Positions 38,862 through 50,848 of a stretch of 64,000 nucleotides of DNA are shown here, one piece after another. Position 1 is the stretch's first letter. Every line of letters starts with the position of its first letter. The stretch spans positions 32,001 through 96,000 of IMG/VR virus record IMGVR_UViG_3300044825_001015; one strand, 5' to 3'. Below the pieces are notes generated by a model. The model saw nothing but the letters and a program-made list of their open reading frames with translations. It was not told the origin of the DNA and ran no database searches. Both the position numbers and the translations under genes were made by a program. Origin of the DNA: a virus.

Positions 38862-39902
38862 ATGAAATTATATAAAAACTCAACTCTATGCTTCGATGAT
38901 ATTTTACTAGTACCACAATATTCTGATGTAGCAAGTAGGAAAGAAGTAGATATTTCTGCACATATAGGAGGCGGCGGAAAGGGAATCTCAATGAGCATAC
39001 CAGTCATAGCCGCACCAATGGATACTGTATGTGACGGTAAAATGGCCTACGCAATCAGAAAACTAGGCGGCTTTGGCATTATGCATAGGTACATGTCAAT
39101 AGATGAGATGAGAGAAGAACTCACCTTTATTAGATCTACTGACCCAGTTTCTTTAGGTGTTGCAGTAGGCGCTAAAGGAGATTACCTAGAGAGGGCTTTT
39201 GCTGCTGTCTCAAATGGTGCCCACCTTATTCTTGTCGATACTGCTAATGGTCATAGCGAGTATGCAATAAATGCTGTTAAGGAAGTTCGTCGTAATATTG
39301 GAAATAAAGTTCATATAATGGCTGGTAATGTTTCAACATATGATGGATTTATGAGACTTAATGATGCTGGCGCAGATTCAATTAGAGTAGGAATTGGTGG
39401 AGGATCTGTATGCACAACTAGAATAGTTAGTGGTCATGGAATGCCAACACTAGCATCTATCTTAGACATAAGATCAAGGTTAACTTATGGCGATGGCGCT
39501 TCTATAGTTGCAGATGGCGGTATCAGAAATAGCGGAGATGCAGTAAAGGCTCTGGCAGCAGGAGCAGATGTAGTCATGCTTGGAAGTTACCTTGCTGGAA
39601 CAGATGAATCTCCTGGAGAGGTATATAGATCTGAAGGTAAGAAGTTTAAAATCTTTAGAGGCATGGCTAGTGCTGAAGCACAAATTAGTGCAAAAGGAAC
39701 TGTATCTGTAGCAGAAGGAGTAGAAACTACAGTACCTTACAAGGGTTCCTTAGAAAAAATACTTGAAGAATTTAAAGGTGGCATAGGTAGCGGATTATCA
39801 TATACTGGTGCCCACAATCTCAAGGAATTGCATGAAGATTCTATGTTTATTAAAGTAAGTCAGGCAAGCCTTAGTGAAAGTAGGCCACATGCAGCACATT
39901 GA
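38862..39902 (+). CDS. IMP dehydrogenase / GMP reductase (no CBS domains)
   Basis: FDDILLVP, APMDTV, GIGGGSVCTTR, ADGGI and FRGMAS motifs. Confidence 0.9.
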   Translation: MKLYKNSTLCFDDILLVPQYSDVASRKEVDISAHIGGGGKGISMSIPVIAAPMDTVCDGKMAYAIRKLGGFGIMHRYMSIDEMREELTFIRSTDPVSLGVAVGAKGDYLERAFAAVSNGAHLILVDTANGHSEYAINAVKEVRRNIGNKVHIMAGNVSTYDGFMRLNDAGADSIRVGIGGGSVCTTRIVSGHGMPTLASILDIRSRLTYGDGASIVADGGIRNSGDAVKALAAGADVVMLGSYLAGTDESPGEVYRSEGKKFKIFRGMASAEAQISAKGTVSVAEGVETTVPYKGSLEKILEEFKGGIGSGLSYTGAHNLKELHEDSMFIKVSQASLSESRPHAAH

Positions 39903-40401: not shown

Positions 40402-40701
40402 ATGCCTCGTAAGAAAAAAGAATATGAATATGTTCCATATAGCATGAATCCAGATATTCATGTTTACTATGAACTACAATTCCTTAAAGATGTAATTAAG
40501 CCAGGTGACAGAATAACCTTTAAGGGAGTTCGCGGTGAGTTTACATTCGTACATATGGCACATAACTCTCAACTAGATGTAACGTGGATTGACTGTAGGA
40601 ATCCAGTAACTGGTGAATATAGGTCATTCTATGTAGATAGGCTAAAGGGATTAGTAAGAGCAAAGAAGAGCAGAAGGAAGAAGCAACTTGTCAGAGATTG
40701 A
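40402..40701 (+). CDS. Hypothetical protein
   Basis: SD AGGAGG precedes ATG 40402. Confidence 0.6.
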   Translation: MPRKKKEYEYVPYSMNPDIHVYYELQFLKDVIKPGDRITFKGVRGEFTFVHMAHNSQLDVTWIDCRNPVTGEYRSFYVDRLKGLVRAKKSRRKKQLVRD

Positions 40702-41203
40702 GTTAACTAGTTCGTTTGATCAAATGAACTTAGTTGTAGAAGAATTACTAAAAGGTAAAAATCCAACAGACATTGCTAAGTTCCTTGGAATTAAAAGATC
40801 TCAGGTTCTAGAACATATTGATACCTGGCGTGAATTAGTATCTGGAGATAGCAGAATCAGAGAAAGGGCCAAGGAAGCCTTGGCTGGTGCAGACCAGCAT
40901 TATTCAATGATTATTCAGCGTGCATGGGAAACAGTAGATCAAGCAGATGCAAATCAGCAGTATAATACTAAAGCCTCCGCATTGAAGATGATTGCAGATG
41001 TTGAGCAAAAGAGAATTGACATGCTTCAAAAGGCTGGCCTTTTAGAAAATAATGAAATGTCTGCCCAACTTTTAGAAACTGAGCGTAAGCAAGAAATTCT
41101 TATGAATATTTTAAAGGAAGTAACATCTGACTGTAATCATTGTAAAGTAGAAGTTGCTAGAAGATTATCAGAAGTTACTGGCAAGGTAGAGCCAATTGAT
41201 TGA
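40688..41203 (+). CDS. HTH protein, probable terminase small subunit
   Basis: N-terminal HTH and coiled coil, directly upstream of TerL. Confidence 0.6.
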   Translation: MSEIELTSSFDQMNLVVEELLKGKNPTDIAKFLGIKRSQVLEHIDTWRELVSGDSRIRERAKEALAGADQHYSMIIQRAWETVDQADANQQYNTKASALKMIADVEQKRIDMLQKAGLLENNEMSAQLLETERKQEILMNILKEVTSDCNHCKVEVARRLSEVTGKVEPID

Positions 41204-42986
41204 TTTTAGTGACTTTATAGATGCACTTGACGGTGACCAATTTGAAGAGGTCCCAGCAGATATAGAGGAATTTGTCACTAATAATGACTACTTAGATTTA
41301 CCCCCTCTTTCTGAATATCAATATCAATCTATTAGGGCAATGACCCAAATTTATAAAAAGGATACTCTAGTAAAATGGCTAGGCGAGGAAGAGGGAATTA
41401 AGAGATGGAATCAGACATGCAAGGAAGTTATTCTTCAGATAGGGAAGGGCGGGGGGAAGGACTTTATCTCTACTATCGGGTGTGCCTATGTTGTCCACCT
41501 ATTGTTGTGCCTAAAGGACCCTGCTAAGTATTATGGAAAGCCGCCAGGAGATTCAATTGACATTATTAACATTGCTATCAACGCTGTTCAAGCAAATAGG
41601 GTATTCTTTAAAGGATTCAAGCGCATCATTGAAAAGTCGGCTTGGTTCCAGGGAAGGTACATCCCAAAGGCTAACAGTATTGAATTTGATAAAGAAATAA
41701 CAGTACACTCAGGACATTCAGAGGCAGAGTCCTGGGAGGGGTACAATGTTATGTTGGCTATCCTTGACGAAATCTCAGGCTTTGAATTAGAAAATACTAC
41801 AGGTCGTCAGAGTCCAAAAACTTCTGCTGCAATATATAAAATGTATAGAGCGTCTGTTAACTCTCGCTTCCCAGATTTTGGTAAGGTCATTATGCTCTCC
41901 TTCCCCAGATTTAAGAATGACTTTATCCAGCAAAAATATAATGATGCTGTGGCAGAAAAAGAGACTATAATAAAATCACACAGTTTTAAAATAGATCCAG
42001 ACCTTCCTGATGGTCACGATGGAAATGAATTCACCATTGAGTGGGAGGAGGATCATATAGTATCCTACGCCCTACCCTACATCTTTGCGCTTAAAAGGCC
42101 CACATGGGAATTTAATCCGACTAGGAAAATACAAGACTTTACAATTGCATTCTATGACGATCCATTAGACTCTCTAATGAGATTTGCCTGTATGCCTCCA
42201 GAGGCCACAGACGCATTCTTTAAGTCACGCGAAAAAATTGAAAAAGCATTTAGTAATCCTAAATTTGCTGTAGATTTTAGCGGAAGATTTGCAGAATGGT
42301 TTAAGCCAGAAGAAGGCCGTCAGTATTTCTTACACGTTGACTTAGCCCAAAAGCATGACAATTGTGCTGTTGCAATGGCACACATTGAGGGATGGGTACA
42401 GATGAAGATCGCTGGCACGATGACAGAGGCGGCTCCTAGAGTTGTAGTAGACGCCGTAAGATATTGGCAACCAACATCTACCACTAGCGTAGATTTATCA
42501 GAAGTAAAAGATTACATTATTGAATTGCGTGAGCGCGGGTTTAATTTGGGAGTGGTCACGTTTGACCGCTGGAATTCTCATGATATGATGCAACAATTGA
42601 AGCATTATGGAATTAATACAGAGTTATTGTCTGTCGCAAAAAAGCACTATGAGGACATGGCCCTTTTAGTAACTGAAGAAAGAGTATACGGGCCAGAGAT
42701 AAAACTTCTTATTGATGAATTATTACAGTTGAGAATTATCCGTGATAAGGTAGACCACCCAAGAAAGGGAAGTAAGGACTTAGCAGACGCAGTTTGTGGC
42801 TCCATATATAATGCTATATCAAGATCCAGAAGAGACAATATGCAGGAAATAGAAATTTATTCCTACGATATGATTGCACAAGATAGCGAGGAAGAGATAA
42901 AATTAAGGATGGGACGACAAAGAAATAAAGATTTAATCATCCCTCCTGCTCTACAAAATGCTATTGACAGCATGGAAATAATTTAA
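41196..42986 (+). CDS. Terminase large subunit
   Basis: GKGGGKD Walker A, ILDE Walker B, HVDLA nuclease motif and 'DHP..GSKDLADAV'. Confidence 0.92.
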   Translation: MIDFSDFIDALDGDQFEEVPADIEEFVTNNDYLDLPPLSEYQYQSIRAMTQIYKKDTLVKWLGEEEGIKRWNQTCKEVILQIGKGGGKDFISTIGCAYVVHLLLCLKDPAKYYGKPPGDSIDIINIAINAVQANRVFFKGFKRIIEKSAWFQGRYIPKANSIEFDKEITVHSGHSEAESWEGYNVMLAILDEISGFELENTTGRQSPKTSAAIYKMYRASVNSRFPDFGKVIMLSFPRFKNDFIQQKYNDAVAEKETIIKSHSFKIDPDLPDGHDGNEFTIEWEEDHIVSYALPYIFALKRPTWEFNPTRKIQDFTIAFYDDPLDSLMRFACMPPEATDAFFKSREKIEKAFSNPKFAVDFSGRFAEWFKPEEGRQYFLHVDLAQKHDNCAVAMAHIEGWVQMKIAGTMTEAAPRVVVDAVRYWQPTSTTSVDLSEVKDYIIELRERGFNLGVVTFDRWNSHDMMQQLKHYGINTELLSVAKKHYEDMALLVTEERVYGPEIKLLIDELLQLRIIRDKVDHPRKGSKDLADAVCGSIYNAISRSRRDNMQEIEIYSYDMIAQDSEEEIKLRMGRQRNKDLIIPPALQNAIDSMEII

Positions 42987-43002
42987 TATAGTAATACTAT
43001 AC

Positions 43003-43076
43003 GGGGCGGTGGCGCAGTCGGTGAGCGCAGTACTCTTATAAGGTAAAGGTCGTGGGTTCAAGTCCCACCCGCCCTA
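43003..43076 (+). tRNA. tRNA-Ile (anticodon UAU)
   Basis: Cloverleaf with acceptor GGGGCGG/CCGCCCT, anticodon loop CTTATAA and T-loop TTCAAGT. Confidence 0.85.
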
Positions 43077-43077
43077 C

Positions 43078-43208
43078 GGTTACAGATGGCAATATCTTAG
43101 GATGGTGTAGTTACATACAAATATCCCGTTATAGCGAGTCTGCCGTTGAGTGCGTTGAATTCGTTTCTAGCGTCTTTCGTGCAAAAGGATTCGTAGCCAT
43201 CTGTAATC
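43078..43208 (+). ncRNA. Candidate structured ncRNA filling the tRNA-Ile/tRNA-Pro spacer
   Basis: 13-bp terminal helix GGTTACAGATGGC/GCCATCTGTAATC plus internal hairpins; no credible ORF. Confidence 0.6.
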
Positions 43209-43211
43209 CTA

Positions 43212-43285
43212 CGGGATGTGGCGCAGTTTGGTAGCGCACCTGTTTTGGGAACAGGGGGCCGAAGGTTCAAATCCTTTCATCCCGA
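43212..43285 (+). tRNA. tRNA-Pro (UGG)
   Basis: Acceptor CGGGATG/CATCCCG, loop TTTGGGA. Confidence 0.92.
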
Positions 43286-43286
43286 C

Positions 43287-43574
43287 ATGGAAATTTTATT
43301 TGTAATTACAGCAGGCACCTTGCTTGCAGAAGGATTTGCTTTTGTGCTTTTAATGAAGCATATAAAGCAAATTCGTTCTGAGTTTAATATGTATCAGAAG
43401 AACCAAAACGATGCAGATATAATTTCCGAAACTATAGATATGTACCAGGAAAAAATTATAGAACTTGAAGAAAAAAATAATAAGTTATCAATAGAAAATA
43501 AACTTCTTCAAGAAAAACTATCTAAAATAAATAAGCAAATGAAGCAGATCAGCGATCATTTTAAAACAAACTGA
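43287..43574 (+). CDS. Membrane-anchored coiled-coil protein
   Basis: N-terminal TM helix MEILFVITAG..; starts 1 nt after tRNA-Pro. Confidence 0.6.
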   Translation: MEILFVITAGTLLAEGFAFVLLMKHIKQIRSEFNMYQKNQNDADIISETIDMYQEKIIELEEKNNKLSIENKLLQEKLSKINKQMKQISDHFKTN

Positions 43575-43586
43575 TATAATTAATGT

Positions 43587-43823
43587 ATGGGAGACTCAAT
43601 GGAAACTGAAGTTCAGGGAAAGGAAAGAGTTCTTACCAGAAGCGACAGGTGCGATGCTCCAAAGTGTCCAGCCCAAGCGTGGGTTATTGCTAAGTTTGTA
43701 ACTGGAGAATTGTATTTCTGTGGGCACCACTTTGACAAGTATGAAGTCAGTATCATTCGTGATGCATATGACATTGTAGATGAAAGAGAATTTATCAATG
43801 CTAAATCAGAATCTTCTGCTTAG
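43587..43823 (+). CDS. Conserved actinobacterial-type Zn-binding small protein
   Basis: 'DRCD..C.AQA...L.FCGHH' motif; leaderless geometry from TGATATAAT at 43572. Confidence 0.65.
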   Translation: MGDSMETEVQGKERVLTRSDRCDAPKCPAQAWVIAKFVTGELYFCGHHFDKYEVSIIRDAYDIVDEREFINAKSESSA

Positions 43824-44307
43824 TAAGAAAGATAAAATAAAACTTGTTAGAGAGCGTGACGGATTTACATGCGCTATCTGCCTAAAAGATTTTAAAGCAA
43901 ATTCTGATGTAACGTTAGATCATTGGATTCCCAAATCAGCGGGTGGATCTGAGGATATATCTAATCTAAGACTTGCACATAAAAAATGTAATGCATGGAA
44001 AAGCGATAGGATACCTAATGAAGATGGAACAATTCCTCCACGCCCTCCAAGATCTAATTTTCAGGATAGAAAGCGGAGAAAGCAGGAGATACTAGAAAAC
44101 CTTTGCACAGATTGTTATGACGGAAGGCTTTTGCTGCAGGGGGAGACATGCCCATATTGTGGATCTCCAGCGGGTCCAGAAGACTGGCCCCATTGGGCAA
44201 GGCGTCCAGCAAACAAGTGTGATCATACTCCGCCAGAATGGTGTTGGGCATGTTCTATAGGAATAGTTGACCGAAAGCCAGTATTTTTGGTACTATTAGA
44301 GGGATAG
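43798..44307 (+). CDS. HNH endonuclease with C-terminal Cys-rich domain
   Basis: RDGFTCAIC, DHWIPKS.GG and NL...H..CN motifs. Confidence 0.85.
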   Translation: MLNQNLLLSKKDKIKLVRERDGFTCAICLKDFKANSDVTLDHWIPKSAGGSEDISNLRLAHKKCNAWKSDRIPNEDGTIPPRPPRSNFQDRKRRKQEILENLCTDCYDGRLLLQGETCPYCGSPAGPEDWPHWARRPANKCDHTPPEWCWACSIGIVDRKPVFLVLLEG

Positions 44308-44311
44308 GTAA

Positions 44312-44382
44312 TCCCCATTGGTGTAATGGCAGCACAAATGACTTTGGATCATTTAGTCGTAGTTCGAATCTATGATGGGGAG
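44312..44382 (+). tRNA. tRNA-Gln (UUG)
   Basis: Acceptor TCCCCAT/ATGGGGA, loop CTTTGGA. Confidence 0.92.
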
Positions 44383-44394
44383 CGGGAGGTAAAA

Positions 44395-44643
44395 ATGCCT
44401 TGGAAGATAGTAAGAAACTTTGGTGATTGCAATGGATATGCAGTAGTCAAAGAGGGGACTAGTGAGATTGAAGGTTGTCATTCTACTAGGTCCGCAGCAG
44501 AAGCACAGCAACGTGCGCTATATGCATCTGAAAATAAGTCAATTCATAATGATGATGAAGAGGATGATGAGCGCAGAGGTAAGCGCAGAAATGAATCCCA
44601 CAAATTCTGGGATGGCGCATTTATTGAAAAGGGTTATAATTGA
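44395..44643 (+). CDS. Small phage protein with C-terminal KFWDGAF tag
   Basis: SD GGAGGT; 'MPW...C.GYAVVK...GCH...A..Q.ALYA.E'. Confidence 0.7.
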   Translation: MPWKIVRNFGDCNGYAVVKEGTSEIEGCHSTRSAAEAQQRALYASENKSIHNDDEEDDERRGKRRNESHKFWDGAFIEKGYN

Positions 44644-44780
44644 CACGCGATAAAGTAATTGAGAAACTTAAGAATAAGAGAATGGAGAATAACGCTATCT
44701 CTAGCGAAATCTCCTCATACATTGCAGGATGGAATGGTGCAATCGACTATGCCATTCAGCAACTAAAGAAGAAAGATTAA
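44640..44780 (+). CDS. Hypothetical protein (46 aa, not in ORF track)
   Basis: TTG start overlapping the upstream stop; MTRDKVIEKL... Confidence 0.5.
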   Translation: MTRDKVIEKLKNKRMENNAISSEISSYIAGWNGAIDYAIQQLKKKD

Positions 44781-44782
44781 TT

Positions 44783-45196
44783 ATGAAGAAGATTATTATT
44801 GCTACTGCAATTTCTGCTGTAGCGCTAGTTGGATGTACTTCACAGTCAGCACAACCAGCACCTACTGTAACTATTACAAAGGCTGCACCAGCACCATCAC
44901 TAGATGATCCAGAGGTAATCCCACAACCAGCCATGGGTAATGAGGAACTGTACCTTATTGGTCTTAAGTCGATGGATAATCCGCTTATCAATATTGCTAC
45001 AGACGAGCAACTTCTTGATATGGGCTACTCCGTATGCGAGGCTCTTGAATCTGGGTTCACAGTAGAGGATATTATTCAGTATATGGCTACAGAGATGGCA
45101 AGAGAGGGTCTTACTTCTGATTACCAGTCAGAGGCAGTAGGATATATTATTGGGGCTGCAGATACCGCTCTGTGCCCAGGATCTAGTACATTCTAG
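44783..45196 (+). CDS. Lipoprotein (DUF732-like)
   Basis: Signal MKKIIIATAISAVALVG-C lipobox; 'GYSVCEAL' and C-terminal 'ALCP'. Confidence 0.75.
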   Translation: MKKIIIATAISAVALVGCTSQSAQPAPTVTITKAAPAPSLDDPEVIPQPAMGNEELYLIGLKSMDNPLINIATDEQLLDMGYSVCEALESGFTVEDIIQYMATEMAREGLTSDYQSEAVGYIIGAADTALCPGSSTF

Positions 45197-45204
45197 ATCC
45201 AAAC

Positions 45205-45275
45205 GCGGCTGTGGTGTAGAGGTAACACATCTGCCTTCCAAGCAGTTATCGCCAGTTCGATTCTGGTCAGCCGCT
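45205..45275 (+). tRNA. tRNA-Gly (UCC)
   Basis: Acceptor GCGGCTG/CAGCCGC, loop CTTCCAA. Confidence 0.92.
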
Positions 45276-45277
45276 CT

Positions 45278-45949
45278 ATGAGTGATTTAAAGTATTCTGT
45301 TGTTGAATATGATACATACTTAACATATGCTATATGGACGCCAGAAAGAGAAGATTCTGATTTTATAATAGGATATGGAACAGAAGTATCAGTAATTTAT
45401 CCAATAGTAGAATATATTTATCCTAACGATTATCCAAATAATTCTGGGTGGAATAGATTATTAAAATCCAAAATTTTTAAAAACCAAAGAGGAGAGTATT
45501 CTGGTCAAGGATGTGATGAATCAGGAACAATGCCATTATTTAATTTACATTATTCTTTACCAGTAATATTTAGAGCGTTTTCACACAAAGACTACAAGGC
45601 GCTATTTACAATTCTCATGGCACTAGCATTAGTAGATAGTAAAAATAGATTTGGGACAGAGGGAGTGTCGTCTTTTGAACTATCACCAGAGATGCTTAAT
45701 TTCTTAGAAAGAACTGATAAATTCTGGGGTAGCAGAAGCGCAGAAATACACATGAAGGCCGAACTTCTTGAAGAATATGATTCTGACAATTGGGAAGTAA
45801 AACTTCCTAAAAACAAAATATTAGACATTGAAAAAAATGTAGTATTGCAATCTAAGGCAGAATTCAAGCGCAGAATATTTTACAAAAAATATAGCAATAG
45901 AGTAAACTTAAGTAATTGTGAGCAGTTAGAAATAGACTGGCCCCAGTAA
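45278..45949 (+). CDS. Hypothetical protein bracketed by tRNA-Gly and tRNA-Arg
   Basis: Starts 2 nt after tRNA-Gly; stop codon lies inside tRNA-Arg. Confidence 0.65.
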   Translation: MSDLKYSVVEYDTYLTYAIWTPEREDSDFIIGYGTEVSVIYPIVEYIYPNDYPNNSGWNRLLKSKIFKNQRGEYSGQGCDESGTMPLFNLHYSLPVIFRAFSHKDYKALFTILMALALVDSKNRFGTEGVSSFELSPEMLNFLERTDKFWGSRSAEIHMKAELLEEYDSDNWEVKLPKNKILDIEKNVVLQSKAEFKRRIFYKKYSNRVNLSNCEQLEIDWPQ

Positions 45950-46012
45950 CTCAGAGGATAGAGTGTCGGACTTCTAATCCGTTGGTCGCAGGTTCGAATC
46001 CTGCCTGGGGCG
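45940..46012 (+). tRNA. tRNA-Arg (UCU)
   Basis: Acceptor GCCCCAG/CTGGGGC, loop CTTCTAA. Confidence 0.92.
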
Positions 46013-46013
46013 C

Positions 46014-46526
46014 GTGGAAAAAATATATCATAAATTTCATATATCTGACTATCTTAATATAAAAAGTGATTTGATAGAAAAGATACACCTCTCTGAGTCA
46101 AAAAAGGACTTTGAGAATATATCAAGGACAGACTGGGATATTAAAAACGATGACCTTGATAGAGACTGGGCTAAGTGCTTTTTAGATAATTTTTATAAAA
46201 AAATAAAGTACACATATAACCAAATTGGATTTAAAAAAATAGAAATACAAAATATCTGGTTCCAAGAGTACGATTACCAGTCGAGTTTTGAGTGGCATAA
46301 CCATCCAGGAGCAGACTTTGCAAGCGTATTCTTTTTGAATTTTTCAAAAAATAATCCTGGAACAGAATTCATGGTAAATGATAAAATATTAAGAGCAGAA
46401 GTAGAGGAAGGAGATATAATTATATTTCCAGCAACTATAATGCATAGATCTCCACCAAATTTATCTGATGATAAAAGAATTATTATAGCCTTTAATGTAA
46501 AAGTAAATGAAAAAAATATGTCATAA
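46014..46526 (+). CDS. 2OG-Fe(II) oxygenase-like protein (TIGR02466-like)
   Basis: 'WHNHP', 'EEGD..IFP...H' and 'R..IAFN' motifs. Confidence 0.75.
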   Translation: MEKIYHKFHISDYLNIKSDLIEKIHLSESKKDFENISRTDWDIKNDDLDRDWAKCFLDNFYKKIKYTYNQIGFKKIEIQNIWFQEYDYQSSFEWHNHPGADFASVFFLNFSKNNPGTEFMVNDKILRAEVEEGDIIIFPATIMHRSPPNLSDDKRIIIAFNVKVNEKNMS

Positions 46527-46623
46527 TTGTAAAAATGAAAAGGATCTAATAGAATTCCTTTTAAAGTCAGGGCAACGAGTTGGCGCTAGAGGAATTTGTT
46601 TAGATTGCTTCAATGCCAGATAG
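46507..46623 (+). CDS. Small CxxC-CxxC protein (38 aa, not in ORF track)
   Basis: MKKICHNC...ICLDCFNAR; stop codon lies inside tRNA-Tyr. Confidence 0.5.
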   Translation: MKKICHNCKNEKDLIEFLLKSGQRVGARGICLDCFNAR

Positions 46624-46694
46624 TCCCCAAGGTGGGGAAGCGGTCTGTAAAACCGTCGCCATCGGCATGGTTGGTTCGATTCCAACATCTGGCA
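46615..46694 (+). tRNA. tRNA-Tyr (GUA), atypical D-arm
   Basis: Acceptor GCCAGAT/ATCTGGC, loop CTGTAAA, long variable arm. Confidence 0.8.
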
Positions 46695-46698
46695 CTTG

Positions 46699-46770
46699 TG
46701 GCGTGTGGCGCAATGGCAGCGCAATCGGCTGTTAACCGATGGGTTGTAGGTTCGAATCCTACCACGCCAG
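46699..46770 (+). tRNA. tRNA-Asn (GUU)
   Basis: Acceptor TGGCGTG/CACGCCA, loop CTGTTAA. Confidence 0.92.
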
Positions 46771-46771
46771 C

Positions 46772-47758
46772 GTGAAGAGTATATTTGTTTCTGTAGTTTC
46801 TTTTAATGAACCTTTTTTAAAAGAGACTATTTTAAGTGCAATAAAAAAATCTAGTAAGCCAGAAAGAATATACTTTGGTGTTGTAGAACAACGTACTGAC
46901 TCAAACTTTGCAGACCTAAAAGAAATAAAAAATGTAAAGCATATTTCTATGCAAGTAGGAGGCCCACTTGGAGTAGGCATTCCAAGAAAACTAAGCATGG
47001 AACTTCTAGATAATCAAGATTACTGTCTAATCATAGATTCTCATATGATTTTTAATGACAACTGGGACGAAAATATAATCAGAAGAATAAAGCACATAAG
47101 TAAAATTTATTCTGAAAAAGTTATTATATCTCAGCATTTACCAGTATTAGATGTAGATGATAATAATTTAGTTTTATATCCAGAAAAGAAAAAAGACACA
47201 CCATGTTATTTAAAATTTGATGGAATATTTATTGATGACATTCCAATACCAAATGGTCATGAATTTTATCAGCAGTACGCACTCACATGCCACTATTTGT
47301 TTTCACTTTCAAAATCCTTCAAGGAAGTAGTGTTTGATCCACGAATATTTTATTTCGCAGAAGAGTCATCCTTAGCGATGAGATTTATAACTAGAGGATA
47401 TAAAATATTTTCTACGAGATATTTCCCTATGTTTCATCTACAAAAAACAAATGGTAAAAAAATTAAAAGTTGGCAGACATTAAATGGAACATCAAGGCTT
47501 CAAGACGATATTGAAATAGTTTATAGTATATTTTCGGGCAAGGAAATAGGTGTATGGGGGGCACCGTCAAAATGTAGGTTAGATGATTTTTTGGCGGAAT
47601 CTAGGCTAGACATATCATATTATATGTCTGGGGTAGACCATGATTTAGATATAAATAAGCAAATAAGAAGTAAGATAGTAGACATGTTTGATAATGGTAA
47701 TGATTTTTATGAAAACCTATATCAAAATTTTATTCCAGCAATAAGGAGTCCTAAATGA
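46772..47758 (+). CDS. GlcNAc-transferase-like glycosyltransferase (GT60-like)
   Basis: 'IFVSV.S..EP.L..T', 'IYFGV.EQ', IDSHM.F..NWD, 'F.AEE' motifs; GTG start 1 nt after tRNA-Asn. Confidence 0.75.
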   Translation: MKSIFVSVVSFNEPFLKETILSAIKKSSKPERIYFGVVEQRTDSNFADLKEIKNVKHISMQVGGPLGVGIPRKLSMELLDNQDYCLIIDSHMIFNDNWDENIIRRIKHISKIYSEKVIISQHLPVLDVDDNNLVLYPEKKKDTPCYLKFDGIFIDDIPIPNGHEFYQQYALTCHYLFSLSKSFKEVVFDPRIFYFAEESSLAMRFITRGYKIFSTRYFPMFHLQKTNGKKIKSWQTLNGTSRLQDDIEIVYSIFSGKEIGVWGAPSKCRLDDFLAESRLDISYYMSGVDHDLDINKQIRSKIVDMFDNGNDFYENLYQNFIPAIRSPK

Positions 47759-49434
47759 AGGTTTTAGGGTTGTCTCCGTTTCATGATGCTGGCGCAGTCC
47801 TAGTAGAAGACGGGTTTGTAAAAAAATATTTTAAAGAAGAAAGACTTAATAGAATAAAAAGAAGTTCCTGTCCAGAATTATCTATAGAGAAATGTTTAGA
47901 GGGCGTAGAAGAAGTTGAATTATTTTCATACTCTGCAGCGACACACAGATTATCATTCGCAAAAAGAGATGAAGATTTATCTTATAAGTTTCTACATTGG
48001 CAAGATGCCGTTAAAAAGCATTCAAAATTAATAGATTCAATAGATTTATCTAGAATGCATCATCTCCAGCACGCATCCACTTCATTTTATAATAGCGGGT
48101 TTAGTGATGCTGCTGTCATAGTTGTCGATGGTAGAGGCTCTAACTTTGGAACTATAGTAGAAACAGAAACAATATTTTATGCAGAGTATCCAGATATTTT
48201 TACTCCTGTATATAAAGCATATGAAAAAACATTTAGATTTAATAAAGAAGATGTAGATCGGGAAAGAAAAAGGCTTCCAGATTGTGAAATAAAAGTATCT
48301 TCTAATTTAGGAATAACTCACCTATACTGCACGGCAACACATTTGATTAATGAATCATTCTTAGAAAATGGAAAGACTATGGGCCTTTCCGCGTATGGAG
48401 ATGCTAGCATTAATTACGAGCCGCTACTCTTGGAGGGAGAAGCCCTAGTAGATCCAGGCAAATTTATTATTTTTGAAACTCCAGAATTAGCAGAATCACC
48501 GCTTGAAGTTATTTATCATAAAGACTATGTAGGTAAACAAAATATTGTAACTAAAGAAAACTATCATATTTATGCTAATTATGCTTTACATGTTCAAAAA
48601 GAAACAGAACGTGCATTAGAAATATTAGTAAATAAGGCAATAGAAAAAACTGGTAGTAAAAACATATGTTTGGCAGGAGGCTATGGACTTAATATAGTTA
48701 ATAATTTAAAGTTGCTTCAAAAGTTTCCTGGGGTAAAGTTTTATTTCGATCCAATGTCTGATGACGGAGGTACTTCAATCGGTGGAGCAATGATTGCTTA
48801 TAGATCTGTAACTAAGGATCGTGAACCGAAACCTATTAAAAATAATTTTATACATGGGATAGATCATGATATAAGTAATATAAAGGGTACCAGCGTTTCA
48901 GAAAAAGATATTGCTAAAATAATTTATTCTGGAAATATAGTAGCAATGTATTACGGTCTAGCGGAGGCTGGACCAAGGGCACTAGGAAATAGATCCATCT
49001 TGTTTGATCCTAGAATAAAAAATGGAAAAGATATAATTAATGTAGTAAAAAAAAGAGAGTGGTATAGGCCATTTGCTGCCTCTATGCTAGAGGAAGATGC
49101 CACTAGGTACTTTGACTACATTGATAATATTGGTTATGAATACATGCTAGTTAATGCAATAGCAAAGCCAGATACTAAAGACATAATCCCCTCCGTTATT
49201 CATGAAGATGGATCATGTAGAATACATATAGTAAAAGATACTAGCCACCCACTATTTAAATTACTTACAAGTTTTAAAGAAATAACTGGCATCGGAGTTC
49301 TTCTTAATACAAGTTTCAACCTTGCTGGAGAGCCACTTATTGAAACTCCACAGGAAGCAATCGGCACCTGGAAGATTTCAGATATAGATTGTTTATGGTT
49401 TCCAAAGATACAAACTGCTCTAATAAAAACATGA
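47755..49434 (+). CDS. Carbamoyltransferase (NodU/CmcH family)
   Basis: HD, EER..R.K, HH..HA, DG.G, GK.MGL..YG, GPRALGNRS, RPFA and LNTSFN motifs. Confidence 0.92.
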   Translation: MKVLGLSPFHDAGAVLVEDGFVKKYFKEERLNRIKRSSCPELSIEKCLEGVEEVELFSYSAATHRLSFAKRDEDLSYKFLHWQDAVKKHSKLIDSIDLSRMHHLQHASTSFYNSGFSDAAVIVVDGRGSNFGTIVETETIFYAEYPDIFTPVYKAYEKTFRFNKEDVDRERKRLPDCEIKVSSNLGITHLYCTATHLINESFLENGKTMGLSAYGDASINYEPLLLEGEALVDPGKFIIFETPELAESPLEVIYHKDYVGKQNIVTKENYHIYANYALHVQKETERALEILVNKAIEKTGSKNICLAGGYGLNIVNNLKLLQKFPGVKFYFDPMSDDGGTSIGGAMIAYRSVTKDREPKPIKNNFIHGIDHDISNIKGTSVSEKDIAKIIYSGNIVAMYYGLAEAGPRALGNRSILFDPRIKNGKDIINVVKKREWYRPFAASMLEEDATRYFDYIDNIGYEYMLVNAIAKPDTKDIIPSVIHEDGSCRIHIVKDTSHPLFKLLTSFKEITGIGVLLNTSFNLAGEPLIETPQEAIGTWKISDIDCLWFPKIQTALIKT

Positions 49435-49453
49435 TTGCTGGTATAATTGTAAT

Positions 49454-49819
49454 ATGGAACTCTATGATGAATTAACAGAAGAAGAAAAAGCATATCATGA
49501 TGCAATGGTTTCTATTGCAGAAAGATTTGGCCCGTTTGACCAGGGAACATCAAGTATTTGGGTTGGATATGAAGGCCCAGAAGACAATGAAGATGCTCAA
49601 ATTGGTGTTAAGTGTGCTAATTGCTCCCTGCATATTGAGAGAGAAGACGGTCAATTAGGATGTGCTATCCTTTCTTATCTAGTTCATCCAGAAGCAAAGT
49701 GCCGCTTGGCAGCAATTCCAGATGGCTATGTAAATGCATCAATGGATGATGAAGATGATGATCCAAATGACGACGATGATATGATGGGCAAATTCTGGGG
49801 CGGATCTTTTCTTAAATGA
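49454..49819 (+). CDS. Acidic 4-Cys (HiPIP-like) protein with C-terminal KFWGGSF tag
   Basis: CANC...C...C; leaderless geometry from TGGTATAAT at 49439. Confidence 0.6.
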   Translation: MELYDELTEEEKAYHDAMVSIAERFGPFDQGTSSIWVGYEGPEDNEDAQIGVKCANCSLHIEREDGQLGCAILSYLVHPEAKCRLAAIPDGYVNASMDDEDDDPNDDDDMMGKFWGGSFLK

Positions 49820-49941
49820 ATAATGTAATTACCACGGAGACAATCCGTGGCGGAGGTGGCGGAATAAAGAATCCAGACCACTCAGATGGTAAAATAAAAA
49901 TAGGTAAATCTCCGCTTAAAGTTCGTCGCGGGAAGAAGTAG
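49816..49941 (+). CDS. Small basic protein (41 aa, not in ORF track)
   Basis: ATGA overlap; MNNVITTETIRGGGGG...RRGKK. Confidence 0.45.
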   Translation: MNNVITTETIRGGGGGIKNPDHSDGKIKIGKSPLKVRRGKK

Positions 49942-50045
49942 TGTTCACTTTTTATTGCTTAGTTAAACACAATGGTAACTACTACCTCAGACCTTACATT
50001 ACTTTGTATAATAATATGATTGAAATTGTAAATTATCCAAAATCG

Positions 50046-50074
50046 TTGACCATATCGTAATATTCCGGTATAAT
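50046..50074 (+). promoter_or_regulatory. Near-consensus sigma70/SigA promoter
   Basis: TTGACC-N17-TATAAT. Confidence 0.8.
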
Positions 50075-50106
50075 AGAATTCATGTTGCCGCCACAAGGAG
50101 GTCAAT

Positions 50107-50721
50107 ATGACGACAATAAACCGATTTGGTGCTGCATTAGTATCAACAGTAACAGTATTATCAATGCTACTAATCTCTCCAAACCTGGCGTATGCTAAGT
50201 CTACGCCTTTGGCGGAAGGTACGGGTAACTTTGCCACCGCTGATACATTAGAAAGAAGGGCAATAACAGATAGAAACTGGACTTTGCCATCTAACTGTAA
50301 TGATAAGCAGGCAAAGATACTATTTAAGGCGGGTTTTAATAGACCTGGAATGCTAAGAGGAGCCTGGGCAATTACCTGGCGTGAATCTAAGCACCAGAAT
50401 CTTTCCGAAAGCAGTCCTTGGTATTCAGGTGCGTTGGGTACTTGGCAAATTCAAACAAGTGCCTGGTCAGGAAAATCCTGGTGGTCTAGGGATAATATGC
50501 TAGACAAAGATAAGCAATCAGAAATTGTAAGAAAGCATTTCCTTAATGATGGTATGCATAATTGGGGATATGACTATTCATTTAAAAATGACTCATGGCA
50601 TGAAGATGCAGGAATGTATTATTCACTATGGGGTTCTGGACTAACGTATTCATGGGTAATCGCACCATTCAATACTGGATGGTCGTTGTTCCCAAAGAAA
50701 TGTACACCTGAAAAGATTTAA
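50107..50721 (+). CDS. Secreted lytic transglycosylase / lysozyme-like protein
   Basis: Signal peptide (AYA/K); catalytic 'AITWRES' and 'GALGTWQI'; SD AAGGAGGT. Confidence 0.75.
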   Translation: MTTINRFGAALVSTVTVLSMLLISPNLAYAKSTPLAEGTGNFATADTLERRAITDRNWTLPSNCNDKQAKILFKAGFNRPGMLRGAWAITWRESKHQNLSESSPWYSGALGTWQIQTSAWSGKSWWSRDNMLDKDKQSEIVRKHFLNDGMHNWGYDYSFKNDSWHEDAGMYYSLWGSGLTYSWVIAPFNTGWSLFPKKCTPEKI

Positions 50722-50774
50722 ATGATAGAATTATATTCTAGGCGCAAATAAAATTGCGGCAACAGCCTAGGATC

Positions 50775-50847
50775 GCCACAGTAACTCAGTTGGTAGAGTA
50801 CCCGCCTTGTAAGCGGAAAGTCATCGGTTCGAATCCGATCTGTGGCT
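50775..50847 (+). tRNA. tRNA-Thr (UGU)
   Basis: Acceptor GCCACAG/CTGTGGC, loop CTTGTAA. Confidence 0.92.
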
Positions 50848-50848
50848 C

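What the first reader, a model, noticed from the sequence alone, without database searches (positions are those of the whole stretch)
43078..43208. Unassigned 131-nt closed-stem RNA sandwiched between tRNA-Ile and tRNA-Pro
Seen: the spacer ends pair over 13 bp (GGTTACAGATGGC 43078-90 with GCCATCTGTAATC 43196-208). The interior can fold into GGAT..TGTA/TACA..ATCC and a long arm GCGTTGAA-TTCG-TTTCTAGCGT closed by AGTCT/GGATT. It begins 1 nt after tRNA-Ile and ends 3 nt before tRNA-Pro, so RNase Z and RNase P would excise it precisely. It lacks tRNA, SRP, hammerhead and HDV/theta signatures that I can recognise. Inference: a stable phage ncRNA, for example a protein decoy or 6S/Y-RNA-like. Its location just downstream of terL also raises a possible packaging role.
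Basis: partly seen in the sequence, partly recalled or inferred. Interest (0 to 1): 0.75.

Follow-up and report, generated by a model that had tools for sequence, protein, structure and literature searches.

The report
New small RNA in phage tRNA array
The 131-base gap between two tRNA genes of this uncultured freshwater actinobacterial phage encodes a real, conserved folded RNA of a family found in no catalogue; it is made and probably cut out together with the tRNAs, and its job is still unknown.

Summary
Window 43078-43208 (+) closes with a 13-bp stem, folds far better than shuffles (z -4.7) and exactly fills the gap between tRNA-Ile(UAU) and tRNA-Pro(UGG).

It belongs to an RNA family with about 50 distinct members (77-147 nt) in related roughly 100-kb phages from lake metagenomes.
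- There is one copy per complete genome.
- All 12 pairs of the closing stem covary (99.9% of cells paired, 26 different stem sequences, G-U pairs on the + strand only).
- The stem is always 11-14 bp long.
- A 5' module, CUUAG-N-AUG...AUAGUUAC, is nearly invariant.
- The 3' part varies.

Members sit between different tRNA pairs. Where a member heads the array, a near-consensus promoter places the transcription start at the first G of the stem.

Nothing matches in Rfam. ARAGORN finds no tRNA or tmRNA. The genome has no Ro60 gene. Adjacency to terL is not conserved (0.1-9.5 kb).

Best reading: a small RNA co-transcribed and co-processed with the tRNAs, analogous but not homologous to T4 RNAC/RNAD. 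It probably acts in trans through the invariant hairpin. Expression could not be tested.

The scan noted a homologue in another genome (e1-6004010) and similar stem-closed RNAs in other phage tRNA arrays.

The parts
42964..42992 (+). Sigma-70-type promoter-like site, TTGACA-17-TATAGT. It overlaps the end of terL, and its -10 hexamer ends 10 nt before tRNA-Ile. It is the likely start of the tRNA-Ile / RNA / tRNA-Pro transcript.
   Evidence: The scan scores it 11 of 12, the best site in 40500-47000. Array-heading members in relatives have the equivalent promoter directly before the RNA.
43003..43077 (+). tRNA-Ile(UAU). The discriminator is A43076 and C74 is at 43077. No CCA is encoded.
   Evidence: ARAGORN; Rfam tRNA 67.4 bits; ends read.
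43078..43208 (+). The 131-nt structured RNA, a member of the new family.
   Evidence: Fold z = -4.68. CM R1 scores it 95.1 bits, and it is the only hit in the window. Family alignment A2.
43078..43090 (+). P1, 5' strand of the 13-bp closing stem. It starts with G, as in 49 of 50 members.
   Evidence: All 12 modelled pairs covary across 60 distinct sequences. Six pairs covary within the window's own clade. Length statistics.
43096..43104 (+). Nearly invariant CUUAG-G-AUG. CUUA lies in the unpaired junction after P1; GGAUG is the 5' strand of the outer part of P2.
   Evidence: These columns are invariant or nearly so in A1, A2 and A3. The sequence is kept whether or not its partner strand is conserved.
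43100..43126 (+). P2 hairpin: GGAUG/UAUCC, an internal loop, UGUA/UACA, and the hexaloop GUUACA (43110-43115). UAGUUAC (43108-43114) is invariant across the family.
   Evidence: MFE structure. The inner stem pair G-C here corresponds to A-U or U-A elsewhere. The loop is invariant apart from A/G at its last position.
43134..43194 (+). Variable 3' arm. In this clade it is a long irregular hairpin closed by CGAGUCU/AGGAUUCG. It carries the family-wide short blocks GAGU and GUGCA.
   Evidence: MFE structure. Within the clade its pairs are mostly invariant or change on one side, and three proposed pairs fail. Other subgroups have different arms or none.
43196..43208 (+). P1, 3' strand. It is followed by C43209 and U43210; 42 of 50 members have C at the first position after P1.
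43212..43286 (+). tRNA-Pro(UGG), 3 nt after the RNA. It is followed at once by the start codon of a 94-aa membrane and coiled-coil protein.
   Evidence: ARAGORN and Rfam.

Best explanation
Window 43078-43208 is the gene of a small structured non-coding RNA. It belongs to an undescribed family that is confined, as far as these searches went, to one lineage of roughly 100-kb phages of freshwater Actinobacteria.

Shown:
- The family exists, with about 50 distinct members.
- There is one copy per complete genome.
- It always lies on the tRNA strand inside or at the head of the tRNA array.
- A terminal helix of 11-14 bp covaries at every modelled pair.
- A 5' module, CUUAG-N-AUG...AUAGUUAC, presented on hairpin P2, is nearly invariant.
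- The 3' arm is variable and in some members absent.
- Where the RNA heads the array, a near-consensus promoter puts the start of transcription at the first G of P1.

Inferred:
- The RNA is transcribed with the tRNAs and released by the host's tRNA-processing enzymes (RNase P on the 5' side; RNase Z or exonucleases on the 3' side).
- This is plausible because its terminal helix has the length of the acceptor/T-arm stack, about 12 bp, starts with G and is followed by C-C/U. That is the same punctuation as the phage tRNAs, which end N73-C74 without CCA.
- The helix would also make the released RNA stable.

Most speculative step: the released RNA acts in trans, and the invariant hairpin with its flanking CUUAG is the working part that binds a partner. 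I think a protein is the more likely partner and an RNA, such as a tRNA anticodon loop, less likely.
For: 1. Structure: z = -4.68 on the + strand against -2.2 on the - strand.

2. Covariation: 12 of 12 P1 pairs show changes on both sides, 99.9% of cells are paired, and 0 of 500 shuffles and no slid register come near. There are 26 distinct P1 sequences. 22 of 624 P1 cells are G-U pairs, which would be mismatches on the other strand.

3. P1 length is 11 bp (2 members), 12 (25), 13 (20) or 14 (3). P1 starts with G in 49 of 50. The next base after P1 is C in 42 of 50. All eight window tRNAs end N73-C74 without CCA.

4. Context: 40 of 50 distinct members have a tRNA ending 0-2 nt upstream, and 46 of 50 have a tRNA starting 1-11 nt downstream. 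The flanking tRNAs differ: Ile/Pro, Leu/Gly, Gln/Gly, Met/Gly, Thr/Gly, Asp/Ser, Gln/Thr, Met/Lys and none/Asn.

5. Members without an upstream tRNA carry TTGACA-17/18-TATAAT-type promoters, with the first G of P1 at the 7th or 8th base after the -10 hexamer. They score 12 of 12 in L145 and 11 of 12 in L017. In the window, an 11-of-12 promoter precedes tRNA-Ile.

6. Copy number: one copy in the window and in each of four further near-complete genomes, plus a divergent short member in a fifth.

7. The 5' module is invariant across subgroups whose 3' parts cannot be aligned.

8. [quoted passage not shown]
Against: - No expression data.
- Processing by RNase P or RNase Z is inferred from geometry only. 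The base before P1 is A or C, not the U that RNase P prefers (my own knowledge).
- Four members (L016, L017, L042, L144) are followed by a Shine-Dalgarno sequence and a start codon rather than by a tRNA. There the RNA could stay attached as an mRNA leader.
- No partner is known.
- The many invariant unpaired bases in the long forms (GAGU, GAGAUAGGGCA, CAUU, GGAAU) look more like a compact tertiary fold, as in a ribozyme or ligand sensor, than a simple protein-binding hairpin.
- The interior helices beyond P2 are not settled.
Confidence: 0.6

Rival explanations
1. It is a purely cis-acting element of the operon: a punctuation or processing module, or a 5'-terminal protective structure. On this view it helps the long tRNA/mRNA transcript to be cut correctly, or protects the 5' end of the transcript, and has no function once released.
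For: It always sits at unit boundaries with 0-3 nt spacers. In about a quarter of distinct members it is the very first element of the transcript, with P1 starting at the predicted start site. In four members it directly precedes a ribosome-binding site. Earlier notes of this scan report stem-closed units in many other phage tRNA arrays (unchecked notes).
Against: There is only one copy per genome, although each genome has many tRNA/ORF junctions. A generic punctuation mark would be repeated. About 24 nt of loop and junction sequence are invariant across lineages whose P1 sequence is free to change. A simple stem would not need that.
Confidence: 0.15
2. It is a self-cleaving ribozyme of a new class that frees the 3' end of the upstream tRNA (or its own ends). 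That is the job proposed for HDV-like theta ribozymes next to tRNAs in gut phages.
For: The long forms have many invariant unpaired nucleotides in junctions and loops, which is typical of catalytic cores. The spacing to the upstream tRNA 3' end is fixed at 0-2 nt in 40 of 50 members. Theta ribozymes are frequently associated with phage tRNA genes and are postulated to process tRNA 3' trailers (PMC10879173).
Against: No match to any ribozyme family in Rfam, even at E up to 10. The covarying helix that joins the extreme 5' and 3' ends does not fit the HDV-like topology, in which the 5' end pairs internally (my own knowledge). 10 of 50 members have no upstream tRNA and start at a promoter. The short forms of 77-80 nt lack most of the invariant junction bases. 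Only one tRNA per array would be served.
Confidence: 0.07
3. It is a decoy or shield aimed at a host RNA-cutting defence or at a tRNA. The loop UUACA(U) would present a MazF/PemK-type cleavage motif, or would pair with the anticodon loop of tRNA-Tyr(GUA) (5'-UGUAA-3').
For: The invariant loop contains UUAC followed by A or G. UAC, UACA, UACAU and UUACU are sites I recall for MazF/Kid-family toxins (my own knowledge, not checked in papers here). UUACR is complementary to U33-G34-U35-A36-A37 of tRNA-Tyr, and both A and G can pair with U33. The phage carries its own tRNA-Tyr. Phage tRNA arrays are thought to counter tRNA-targeting defences (my own knowledge).
Against: The matches are only 4-5 nt long. 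By my estimate about a quarter of random hexaloops fit the pattern U-NNN-R. No toxin or partner has been identified. No extended similarity to any of 130 phage tRNAs. No enrichment of complementary sites in the window.
Confidence: 0.08
4. It is a packaging RNA working with the terminase, like phi29 pRNA.
For: In the window and its close relatives, and in L016, L017 and L042, the RNA lies 15-100 nt downstream of terL on the same strand. Like pRNA, it has paired 5' and 3' ends.
Against: In complete relatives G003, G004 and G005 the RNA lies 5, 7.7 and 9.5 kb from terL. No match to the Rfam pRNA family. No pair of mutually complementary loops that could build a ring. The phage has a classical large terminase (60-62% identical to that of Streptomyces phages).
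Confidence: 0.03
5. It is a DNA-level feature, such as a small mobile inverted-repeat element or a protein-binding site, and not an RNA.
For: It has terminal inverted repeats of 12-13 bp and lies between different tRNA pairs in different genomes.
Against: G-U pairs occur on the + strand only: 22 cells in P1 and GU:8, GU:6 and UG:4 among the pair types. The arms change by compensatory substitutions to 26 different sequences, so no fixed repeat sequence is kept. There is one copy per genome. It is always on the tRNA strand. Promoters are placed to start exactly at P1.
Confidence: 0.02

Closest known systems
Phage T4 RNAC and RNAD (species 1 and species 2 RNAs) of the T4 tRNA gene cluster
   Same: They are small RNAs (139 and 119 nt) encoded inside a phage tRNA cluster on the tRNA strand. 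RNAD starts 1 nt after tRNA-Arg and RNAC 6 nt after RNAD. They are transcribed from the tRNA region and their role is unknown (PMC3014915, PMC9697503).
   Different: No homology: model R1 finds nothing at rnaC or rnaD. RNAC carries a canonical T-arm near its 3' end; the RNA here has none. RNAD does not fold better than shuffles (z -0.8). The hosts are Proteobacteria, not Actinobacteria.
GOLLD and ROOL large non-coding RNAs
   Same: [quoted passage not shown]
   Different: From memory they are about 5-8 times longer, and they form multimeric cages (PMC12990946). Rfam gives no match here.
tRNA acceptor/T-arm minihelix substrates and tRNA-like small RNAs cut out by RNase P and RNase Z
   Same: The terminal helix is 12-13 bp long and begins with G. 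It is followed by an unpaired C and then C or U, and is placed head to tail with tRNAs. This is the geometry that the tRNA end-processing enzymes measure (my own knowledge; review PMC4919913 was consulted, but the 12-bp figure was not found in it).
   Different: There is no T-loop, no cloverleaf and no encoded CCA. Both strands of the helix are continuous, and the 'loop' is a folded domain of 50-110 nt. Cleavage was not tested.
HDV-like theta ribozymes next to phage tRNAs
   Same: They are structured RNAs frequently associated with tRNA genes in phage genomes, and are postulated to process the tRNA 3' trailer (PMC10879173).
   Different: The topology differs: here the extreme ends pair with each other. 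There is no Rfam HDV-type match. Ten of 50 members have no upstream tRNA.
Bacterial Y RNAs (YrlA) with Ro60/Rsr
   Same: They are small RNAs with paired 5' and 3' ends that mimic parts of tRNA and also occur in some phages (PMC4201824, listed).
   Different: No TROVE/Ro60 gene in this genome, no Rfam Y RNA match, and no T-arm or D-arm mimic.
Stem-closed RNA between the two tRNA-Pro genes of cultured Streptomyces phages (Gilson, Kenrey, Moab, Comrade; Stanwilliamsviridae)
   Same: The position is syntenic: terminase (60-62% identical), a tRNA, a gap of 126-189 nt, tRNA-Pro(UGG), then an HNH endonuclease. The gap holds a conserved RNA-like element with a 9-bp closing stem that shows compensatory changes.
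   Different: Model R1 does not recognise it. It lacks CUUAG...AUAGUUAC. It is unannotated, and I found no description of it.

Membership tests
tRNA (Rfam RF00005) | Cloverleaf with D, anticodon and T arms, detectable by covariance model or ARAGORN | tested here: not met
   Rfam finds only the two flanking tRNAs, even at E up to 10. ARAGORN finds no tRNA in 59 family members, with introns allowed or with mitochondrial-type models; the one exception is a relaxed-threshold hit in a single sequence.
tmRNA | tRNA-like domain plus a tag reading frame | tested here: not met
   ARAGORN finds no tmRNA in the window or in 59 family members.
Y RNA / YrlA with Ro60 | Match to the Y RNA or YrlA models, and a Ro60 (TROVE) gene in the genome | tested here: not met
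   No Rfam match. PF05731 is absent from the complete 104.8-kb genome, while the control genomes gave hits.
6S RNA | Long hairpin of about 180 nt with a central bubble; match to the Rfam 6S models | tested here: not met
   No Rfam match. The RNA is 77-147 nt long with a multi-branch fold.
Known self-cleaving ribozymes (hammerhead, HDV-like, twister, pistol, hatchet and others in Rfam) | Match to the family covariance model | tested here: not met
   No match at E up to 10 in the window, or at E up to 1 in seven diverse members. Theta ribozymes may not be in Rfam. Their HDV-like topology does not fit the covarying end-to-end helix (the topology is from my own knowledge).
Known self-cleaving ribozymes | Site-specific self-cleavage in vitro | not testable with these tools
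   This needs a bench assay.
phi29-type packaging RNA | Match to the pRNA model; conserved link to the packaging ATPase; complementary loops for ring formation | tested here: not met
   No Rfam match. The distance to terL is 0.1-9.5 kb. The invariant loop GUUACA has no conserved complementary partner loop.
T4 RNAC/RNAD kind (small RNAs of phage tRNA clusters) | Encoded within a phage tRNA cluster, on the same strand, abutting tRNA genes | tested here: met
T4 RNAC/RNAD kind (small RNAs of phage tRNA clusters) | Sequence or structure homology to RNAC or RNAD | tested here: not met
   Model R1 with filters off gives no hit at rnaC or rnaD.
T4 RNAC/RNAD kind (small RNAs of phage tRNA clusters) | Accumulates as a discrete RNA during infection | not testable with these tools
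The phage is uncultured.
GOLLD / ROOL | Match to the Rfam models; size of several hundred nucleotides | tested here: not met
   No match at gathering or E-value thresholds.

The most novel reading that the evidence does not exclude
The RNA is a new class of tRNA-operon 'passenger'. It borrows only the acceptor/T-stack geometry of tRNA so that the host's tRNA enzymes cut it out and stabilise it. It then uses its invariant CUUAG...AUAGUUAC hairpin either to neutralise a host anti-phage RNA nuclease, as a pseudo-substrate in the way that antitoxin-mimicking phage RNAs work, or to bind and protect a tRNA anticodon loop. That would make it an RNA-based counter-defence encoded inside the tRNA array. 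A compact new ribozyme or ligand sensor is an alternative of similar novelty.
Probability: 0.15. Interest if true: 0.8.

Novelty: new variant of a known kind. Interest (0 to 1): 0.55.

Why it matters
Small RNAs in phage tRNA clusters have been known in T4 for decades, and their roles are still unknown (PMC3014915). This family has features that make it a workable entry to that problem:
- It is single-copy.
- It has a very clear covariation signal.
- It has a sharply defined invariant module of about 24 nt that can be mutated or used as bait.
- It has natural short forms of 77-80 nt that mark the minimal core.

The family also suggests a simple design rule. A helix of about 12 bp, starting with G and followed by C-C/U, would let any folded RNA be carried in a tRNA transcript. 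The same rule would help annotate the unexplained gaps in phage tRNA arrays.

The hosts are probably freshwater Actinobacteria; the phage carries two WhiB genes.

Cultured Streptomyces phages carry a different stem-closed RNA at the same genomic position. The general question can therefore be tested at the bench, even though this phage is uncultured.

Tried and rejected
- Rfam at gathering and at permissive E-values, on the window and on seven diverse members: only tRNAs.
- GenBank phages, by megablast and by sensitive blastn with the RNA: nothing.
- ARAGORN with introns, mitochondrial models and tmRNA mode on 59 members: nothing consistent.
- Ro60/TROVE, CCA-adding enzyme and RtcB genes in the phage genome: absent. 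No encoded protein partner of these kinds is present.
- Packaging role: rejected, because adjacency to terL is not conserved.
- Antisense targets of the invariant loop in the window: 18 near-matches against 13.7 expected, so no enrichment.
- The both-strand pattern scan of 185,579 species genomes gave one true hit, a phage-like contig binned in a Bacteroidia MAG. No host-encoded copy or long complementary target was found.
- Mimicry of a phage tRNA: blastn-short of the P2 module against 130 distinct tRNAs gave only chance-level hits; the best was 10 nt at E 0.2.
- Resemblance to E. coli RNase P RNA (AUAGGGCAG, GUAAGAG): by my estimate 9-mer and 7-mer matches of this kind are expected by chance. 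Rejected.
- CsrA-type GGA site (RGGAUGU): rejected, because many members have GAAUG, GUAUG or GCAUG.
- Gene-specific leader or riboswitch for the downstream gene: rejected, because the downstream genes differ (membrane/coiled-coil protein, peroxiredoxin-like, HNH and others).
- Conserved mini-ORF (AUG UUA UAG): not kept in members with GGAUGGAU or GAUGAUU.
- Gaps of about 290-330 nt between other tRNAs in relatives: these hold small ORFs, not further copies.
- Interior helices P3 and P4 of the long forms: several registers and possible loop-loop pairings (GAGU with AUUC or ACUC; CUUA with UAAG) could not be settled, because the partners are invariant or the alignment shifts.
Relatives cannot be drawn for a virus record.

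Full report
**The observation**

- ARAGORN finds tRNA-Ile(UAU) at 43003-43077 and tRNA-Pro(UGG) at 43212-43286. Rfam confirms both and ends tRNA-Ile at its discriminator, 43076.
- The 131 nt between them (43078-43208) begin with GGTTACAGATGGC and end with GCCATCTGTAATC. These pair over 13 bp, with one G-U pair.
- As RNA, the + strand folds to -45.8 kcal/mol, z = -4.68 against 200 dinucleotide shuffles. The - strand reaches only z = -2.2.

**Not a known family**

- Rfam 15 reports nothing in 42950-43350 except the two tRNAs, even at E up to 10. It reports nothing but tRNAs in seven diverse relatives.
- ARAGORN finds no tRNA or tmRNA in 59 family members, with introns allowed, with mitochondrial-type models or in tmRNA mode.
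- GenBank phages give no nucleotide match.

**The genome**

- The window is part of a complete 104,844-bp IMG/VR virus record with direct terminal repeats.
- It carries two WhiB genes. Its large terminase is 60-62% identical to that of cultured Streptomyces phages of the Stanwilliamsviridae.
- Related contigs come from freshwater lake metagenomes.
- The host is therefore very probably an actinobacterium.

**A family with strong covariation**

- The terminase brought in 80 related loci. Many of them have a homologous element between tRNAs.
- A pattern built on the conserved core found 98 viral stretches. It also found 51 metagenome stretches, of which 33 are true members by the covariance model.
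- In all there are about 50 distinct sequences of 77-147 nt.
- On the model-based alignment (90 hits, 60 distinct rows), all 12 modelled pairs of the closing stem P1 show changes on both sides and 99.9% of cells are paired. No shuffle out of 500 and no slid register comes near.
- There are 26 different P1 sequences. 22 of 624 P1 cells are G-U pairs, which would be A-C mismatches on the other strand. The constraint therefore acts on a + strand RNA, not on DNA.
- P1 is 11 bp (2 members), 12 (25), 13 (20) or 14 (3). It starts with G in 49 of 50. The next base after it is C in 42 of 50.

**Anatomy**

- After P1 comes a short junction, usually CAC plus 2-4 nt. Then comes the nearly invariant CUUAG-N-AUG.
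- This leads into hairpin P2, whose 4-bp inner stem covaries (A-U, G-C, U-A). Its loop is GUUAC followed by A or G. AUAGUUAC is invariant.
- The 5' strand of P2 keeps its sequence even where its partner strand differs or carries insertions. This points to sequence-specific recognition and not to pairing alone.
- The 3' part is modular:
  - Short forms of 77-80 nt have only one small hairpin.
  - The commonest long forms have a hairpin with a GUAAGA-type loop and the conserved blocks GAGAUAGGGCA, CAUU and GGAAU.
  - The window's clade has a long irregular arm.
- Within that clade the arm's pairs are mostly invariant or change on one side, and three proposed pairs fail. I regard the arm as plausible but unproven.
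- I could not settle the interior helices or possible loop-loop contacts of the long forms.

**Context**

- Of 50 distinct members, 40 have a tRNA ending 0-2 nt before P1 and 46 have a tRNA starting 1-11 nt after it.
- The neighbours differ: Ile/Pro, Leu/Gly, Gln/Gly, Met/Gly, Thr/Gly, Asp/Ser, Gln/Thr and Met/Lys.
- The ten members without an upstream tRNA head the array. They are preceded by near-consensus promoters (TTGACA, 17-18 nt, TATAAT or GATAAT), and the first G of P1 is the 7th or 8th base after the -10 hexamer. The promoters score 12 of 12 in L145 and 11 of 12 in L017.
- The same nucleotide is thus the predicted 5' end in both kinds of context.
- In the window, an 11-of-12 promoter (42964-42992) lies 10 nt before tRNA-Ile.
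- All eight window tRNAs end N73-C74 without CCA, and the next unit starts at once. The RNA ends in the same way: P1, then C, then C or U.
- Four members (L016, L017, L042, L144) are followed by a ribosome-binding site and a start codon rather than by a tRNA. The downstream genes differ between members. The RNA is therefore not a leader of one particular gene.

**Copy number and linkage**

- The model finds one copy in the window and one in each of four further near-complete genomes. A fifth has a divergent short member.
- In three complete relatives the RNA lies 5, 7.7 and 9.5 kb from terL. The adjacency to terL seen here is not a conserved feature, so the packaging idea loses its only support.
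- The genome has no Ro60, CCA-adding enzyme or RtcB gene.

**What it most likely is and does**

- Shown: a single-copy structured RNA gene of a new family, embedded in the tRNA transcription unit.
- Inferred: it is released with the tRNAs. Its terminal helix has the length and end features of the acceptor/T-arm stack that RNase P, RNase Z and the CCA-adding enzyme measure (my own knowledge). Its boundaries have the same punctuation as the tRNAs.
- Speculative: it then acts in trans through the invariant hairpin module.
- Rivals:
  - a purely cis role in processing or 5'-end protection, argued against by the single copy and the invariant loops;
  - a new self-cleaving ribozyme, suggested by the many invariant junction bases but with no match to known classes and no upstream tRNA in a fifth of members;
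  - a decoy for a MazF-type nuclease or a binder of the tRNA-Tyr anticodon loop, where the loop matches are short and near chance level;
  - a packaging RNA;
  - a DNA-level repeat.
  The last two are disfavoured by the data above.

**Comparison with what is known**

- The nearest described things are T4 RNAC and RNAD. These are small RNAs of 139 and 119 nt that directly follow tRNA-Arg in the T4 tRNA cluster, and their roles remain unknown (PMC3014915, PMC9697503).
- They are analogues, not relatives. The model does not hit them, and RNAC carries a true T-arm.
- GOLLD and ROOL are much larger RNAs that also lie in tRNA arrays (PMC12990946).
- Theta ribozymes are frequently associated with phage tRNA genes (PMC10879173) but have another topology.
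- Cultured Streptomyces phages (Gilson, Kenrey, Moab, Comrade) have another conserved element at the syntenic place: terminase, tRNA-Pro, gap, tRNA-Pro, HNH. It is closed by a 9-bp stem with compensatory changes. The model does not recognise it.
- Earlier notes of this scan list a 134-nt homologue in another genome (e1-6004010). They also list stem-closed RNAs in the tRNA arrays of unrelated phages. I treat these as leads only.

**Verdict**

- It is a real, well-supported new RNA family of a known general kind: small RNAs carried in phage tRNA clusters.
- The function is unknown, and no expression data were obtainable.
- Interest is moderate to fairly high for RNA and phage biologists, mainly because the family is clean enough to be used to attack the old question of what such RNAs do.

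Noticed in passing
window 43003-50848 (tRNA ends at 43076, 43285, 44382, 45275, 46012, 46694, 46770, 50847): All eight tRNA genes lack CCA, but each has C directly after the discriminator. In several, an ATG or GTG start codon follows that C at once (for example Pro A|C|ATG at 43287, Arg G|C|GTG, Thr T|C|ATG). tRNA processing may therefore create leaderless mRNAs.
   Followed up: partly
window 46615-46695: ARAGORN reports tRNA-Tyr(GUA) here, but it is not among the Rfam tRNA matches at the gathering threshold (7 hits against 8 genes).
   Followed up: no
window 43587-43823; L028 about 6265-6500: A small Cys-rich protein with a ...RCD..C....(V/L)..GEL.FCGHH... motif is encoded among the tRNAs, both here and, between tRNA-Asn and tRNA-Ile, in relatives. 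It is a conserved passenger of the array and its function is unknown.
   Followed up: no
window 43780-44307: An HNH endonuclease gene (Pfam HNH, E 1.7e-12) lies inside the tRNA region. HNH genes also follow the RNA in L067 and L119 and follow tRNA-Pro in Streptomyces phage Gilson. This recalls the homing endonuclease SegB in the T4 tRNA cluster.
   Followed up: partly
window 43290-43574; L017 5922-6215; L016 from 5934: The first protein gene after the RNA/tRNA-Pro encodes a protein of about 95 aa with an N-terminal membrane helix and a coiled coil. The same type of protein follows the RNA in L016 and L017.
   Followed up: no
window 38862-39902: An IMP dehydrogenase / GMP reductase family gene (Pfam PF00478, E 4e-103) lies upstream of the terminase. 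It is an auxiliary nucleotide-metabolism gene.
   Followed up: no
L179 (JBBALJ010000049.1, a 23.8-kb contig of a 'Bacteroidia' MAG), 4296-5065: This contig carries the same phage tRNA array with a family member at 4789-4917. It is probably a phage contig binned into the wrong genome and should not be taken as host evidence.
   Followed up: partly
L244 (Streptomyces phage Gilson NC_048742) 11599-11765, and L245-L247: An unannotated conserved element lies between two tRNA-Pro(UGG) genes of cultured Streptomyces phages. It has a 9-bp closing stem with compensatory changes (UGUAGAAGC, UGUGGAAUC, UGUAGAAGA), invariant blocks CUCCAGGAGUAUC and GAGGAUACGAAAACG, and a variable inner hairpin.
   Followed up: partly
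L244 15375-16991 (Gilson gene 106): A 539-aa gene annotated 'RNA-binding protein' lies within the tRNA region of Streptomyces phage Gilson. I did not check whether it is Ro60-like or whether the window's phage has a counterpart.
   Followed up: no
L059 5568-5642 and 5643-5724: A 10-nt identity (GAUGUUAUAG) links the P2 5' strand of the short-form RNA to the variable-arm region of the tRNA-Leu(UAG) gene directly upstream. At E 0.2 it is probably chance.
   Followed up: no
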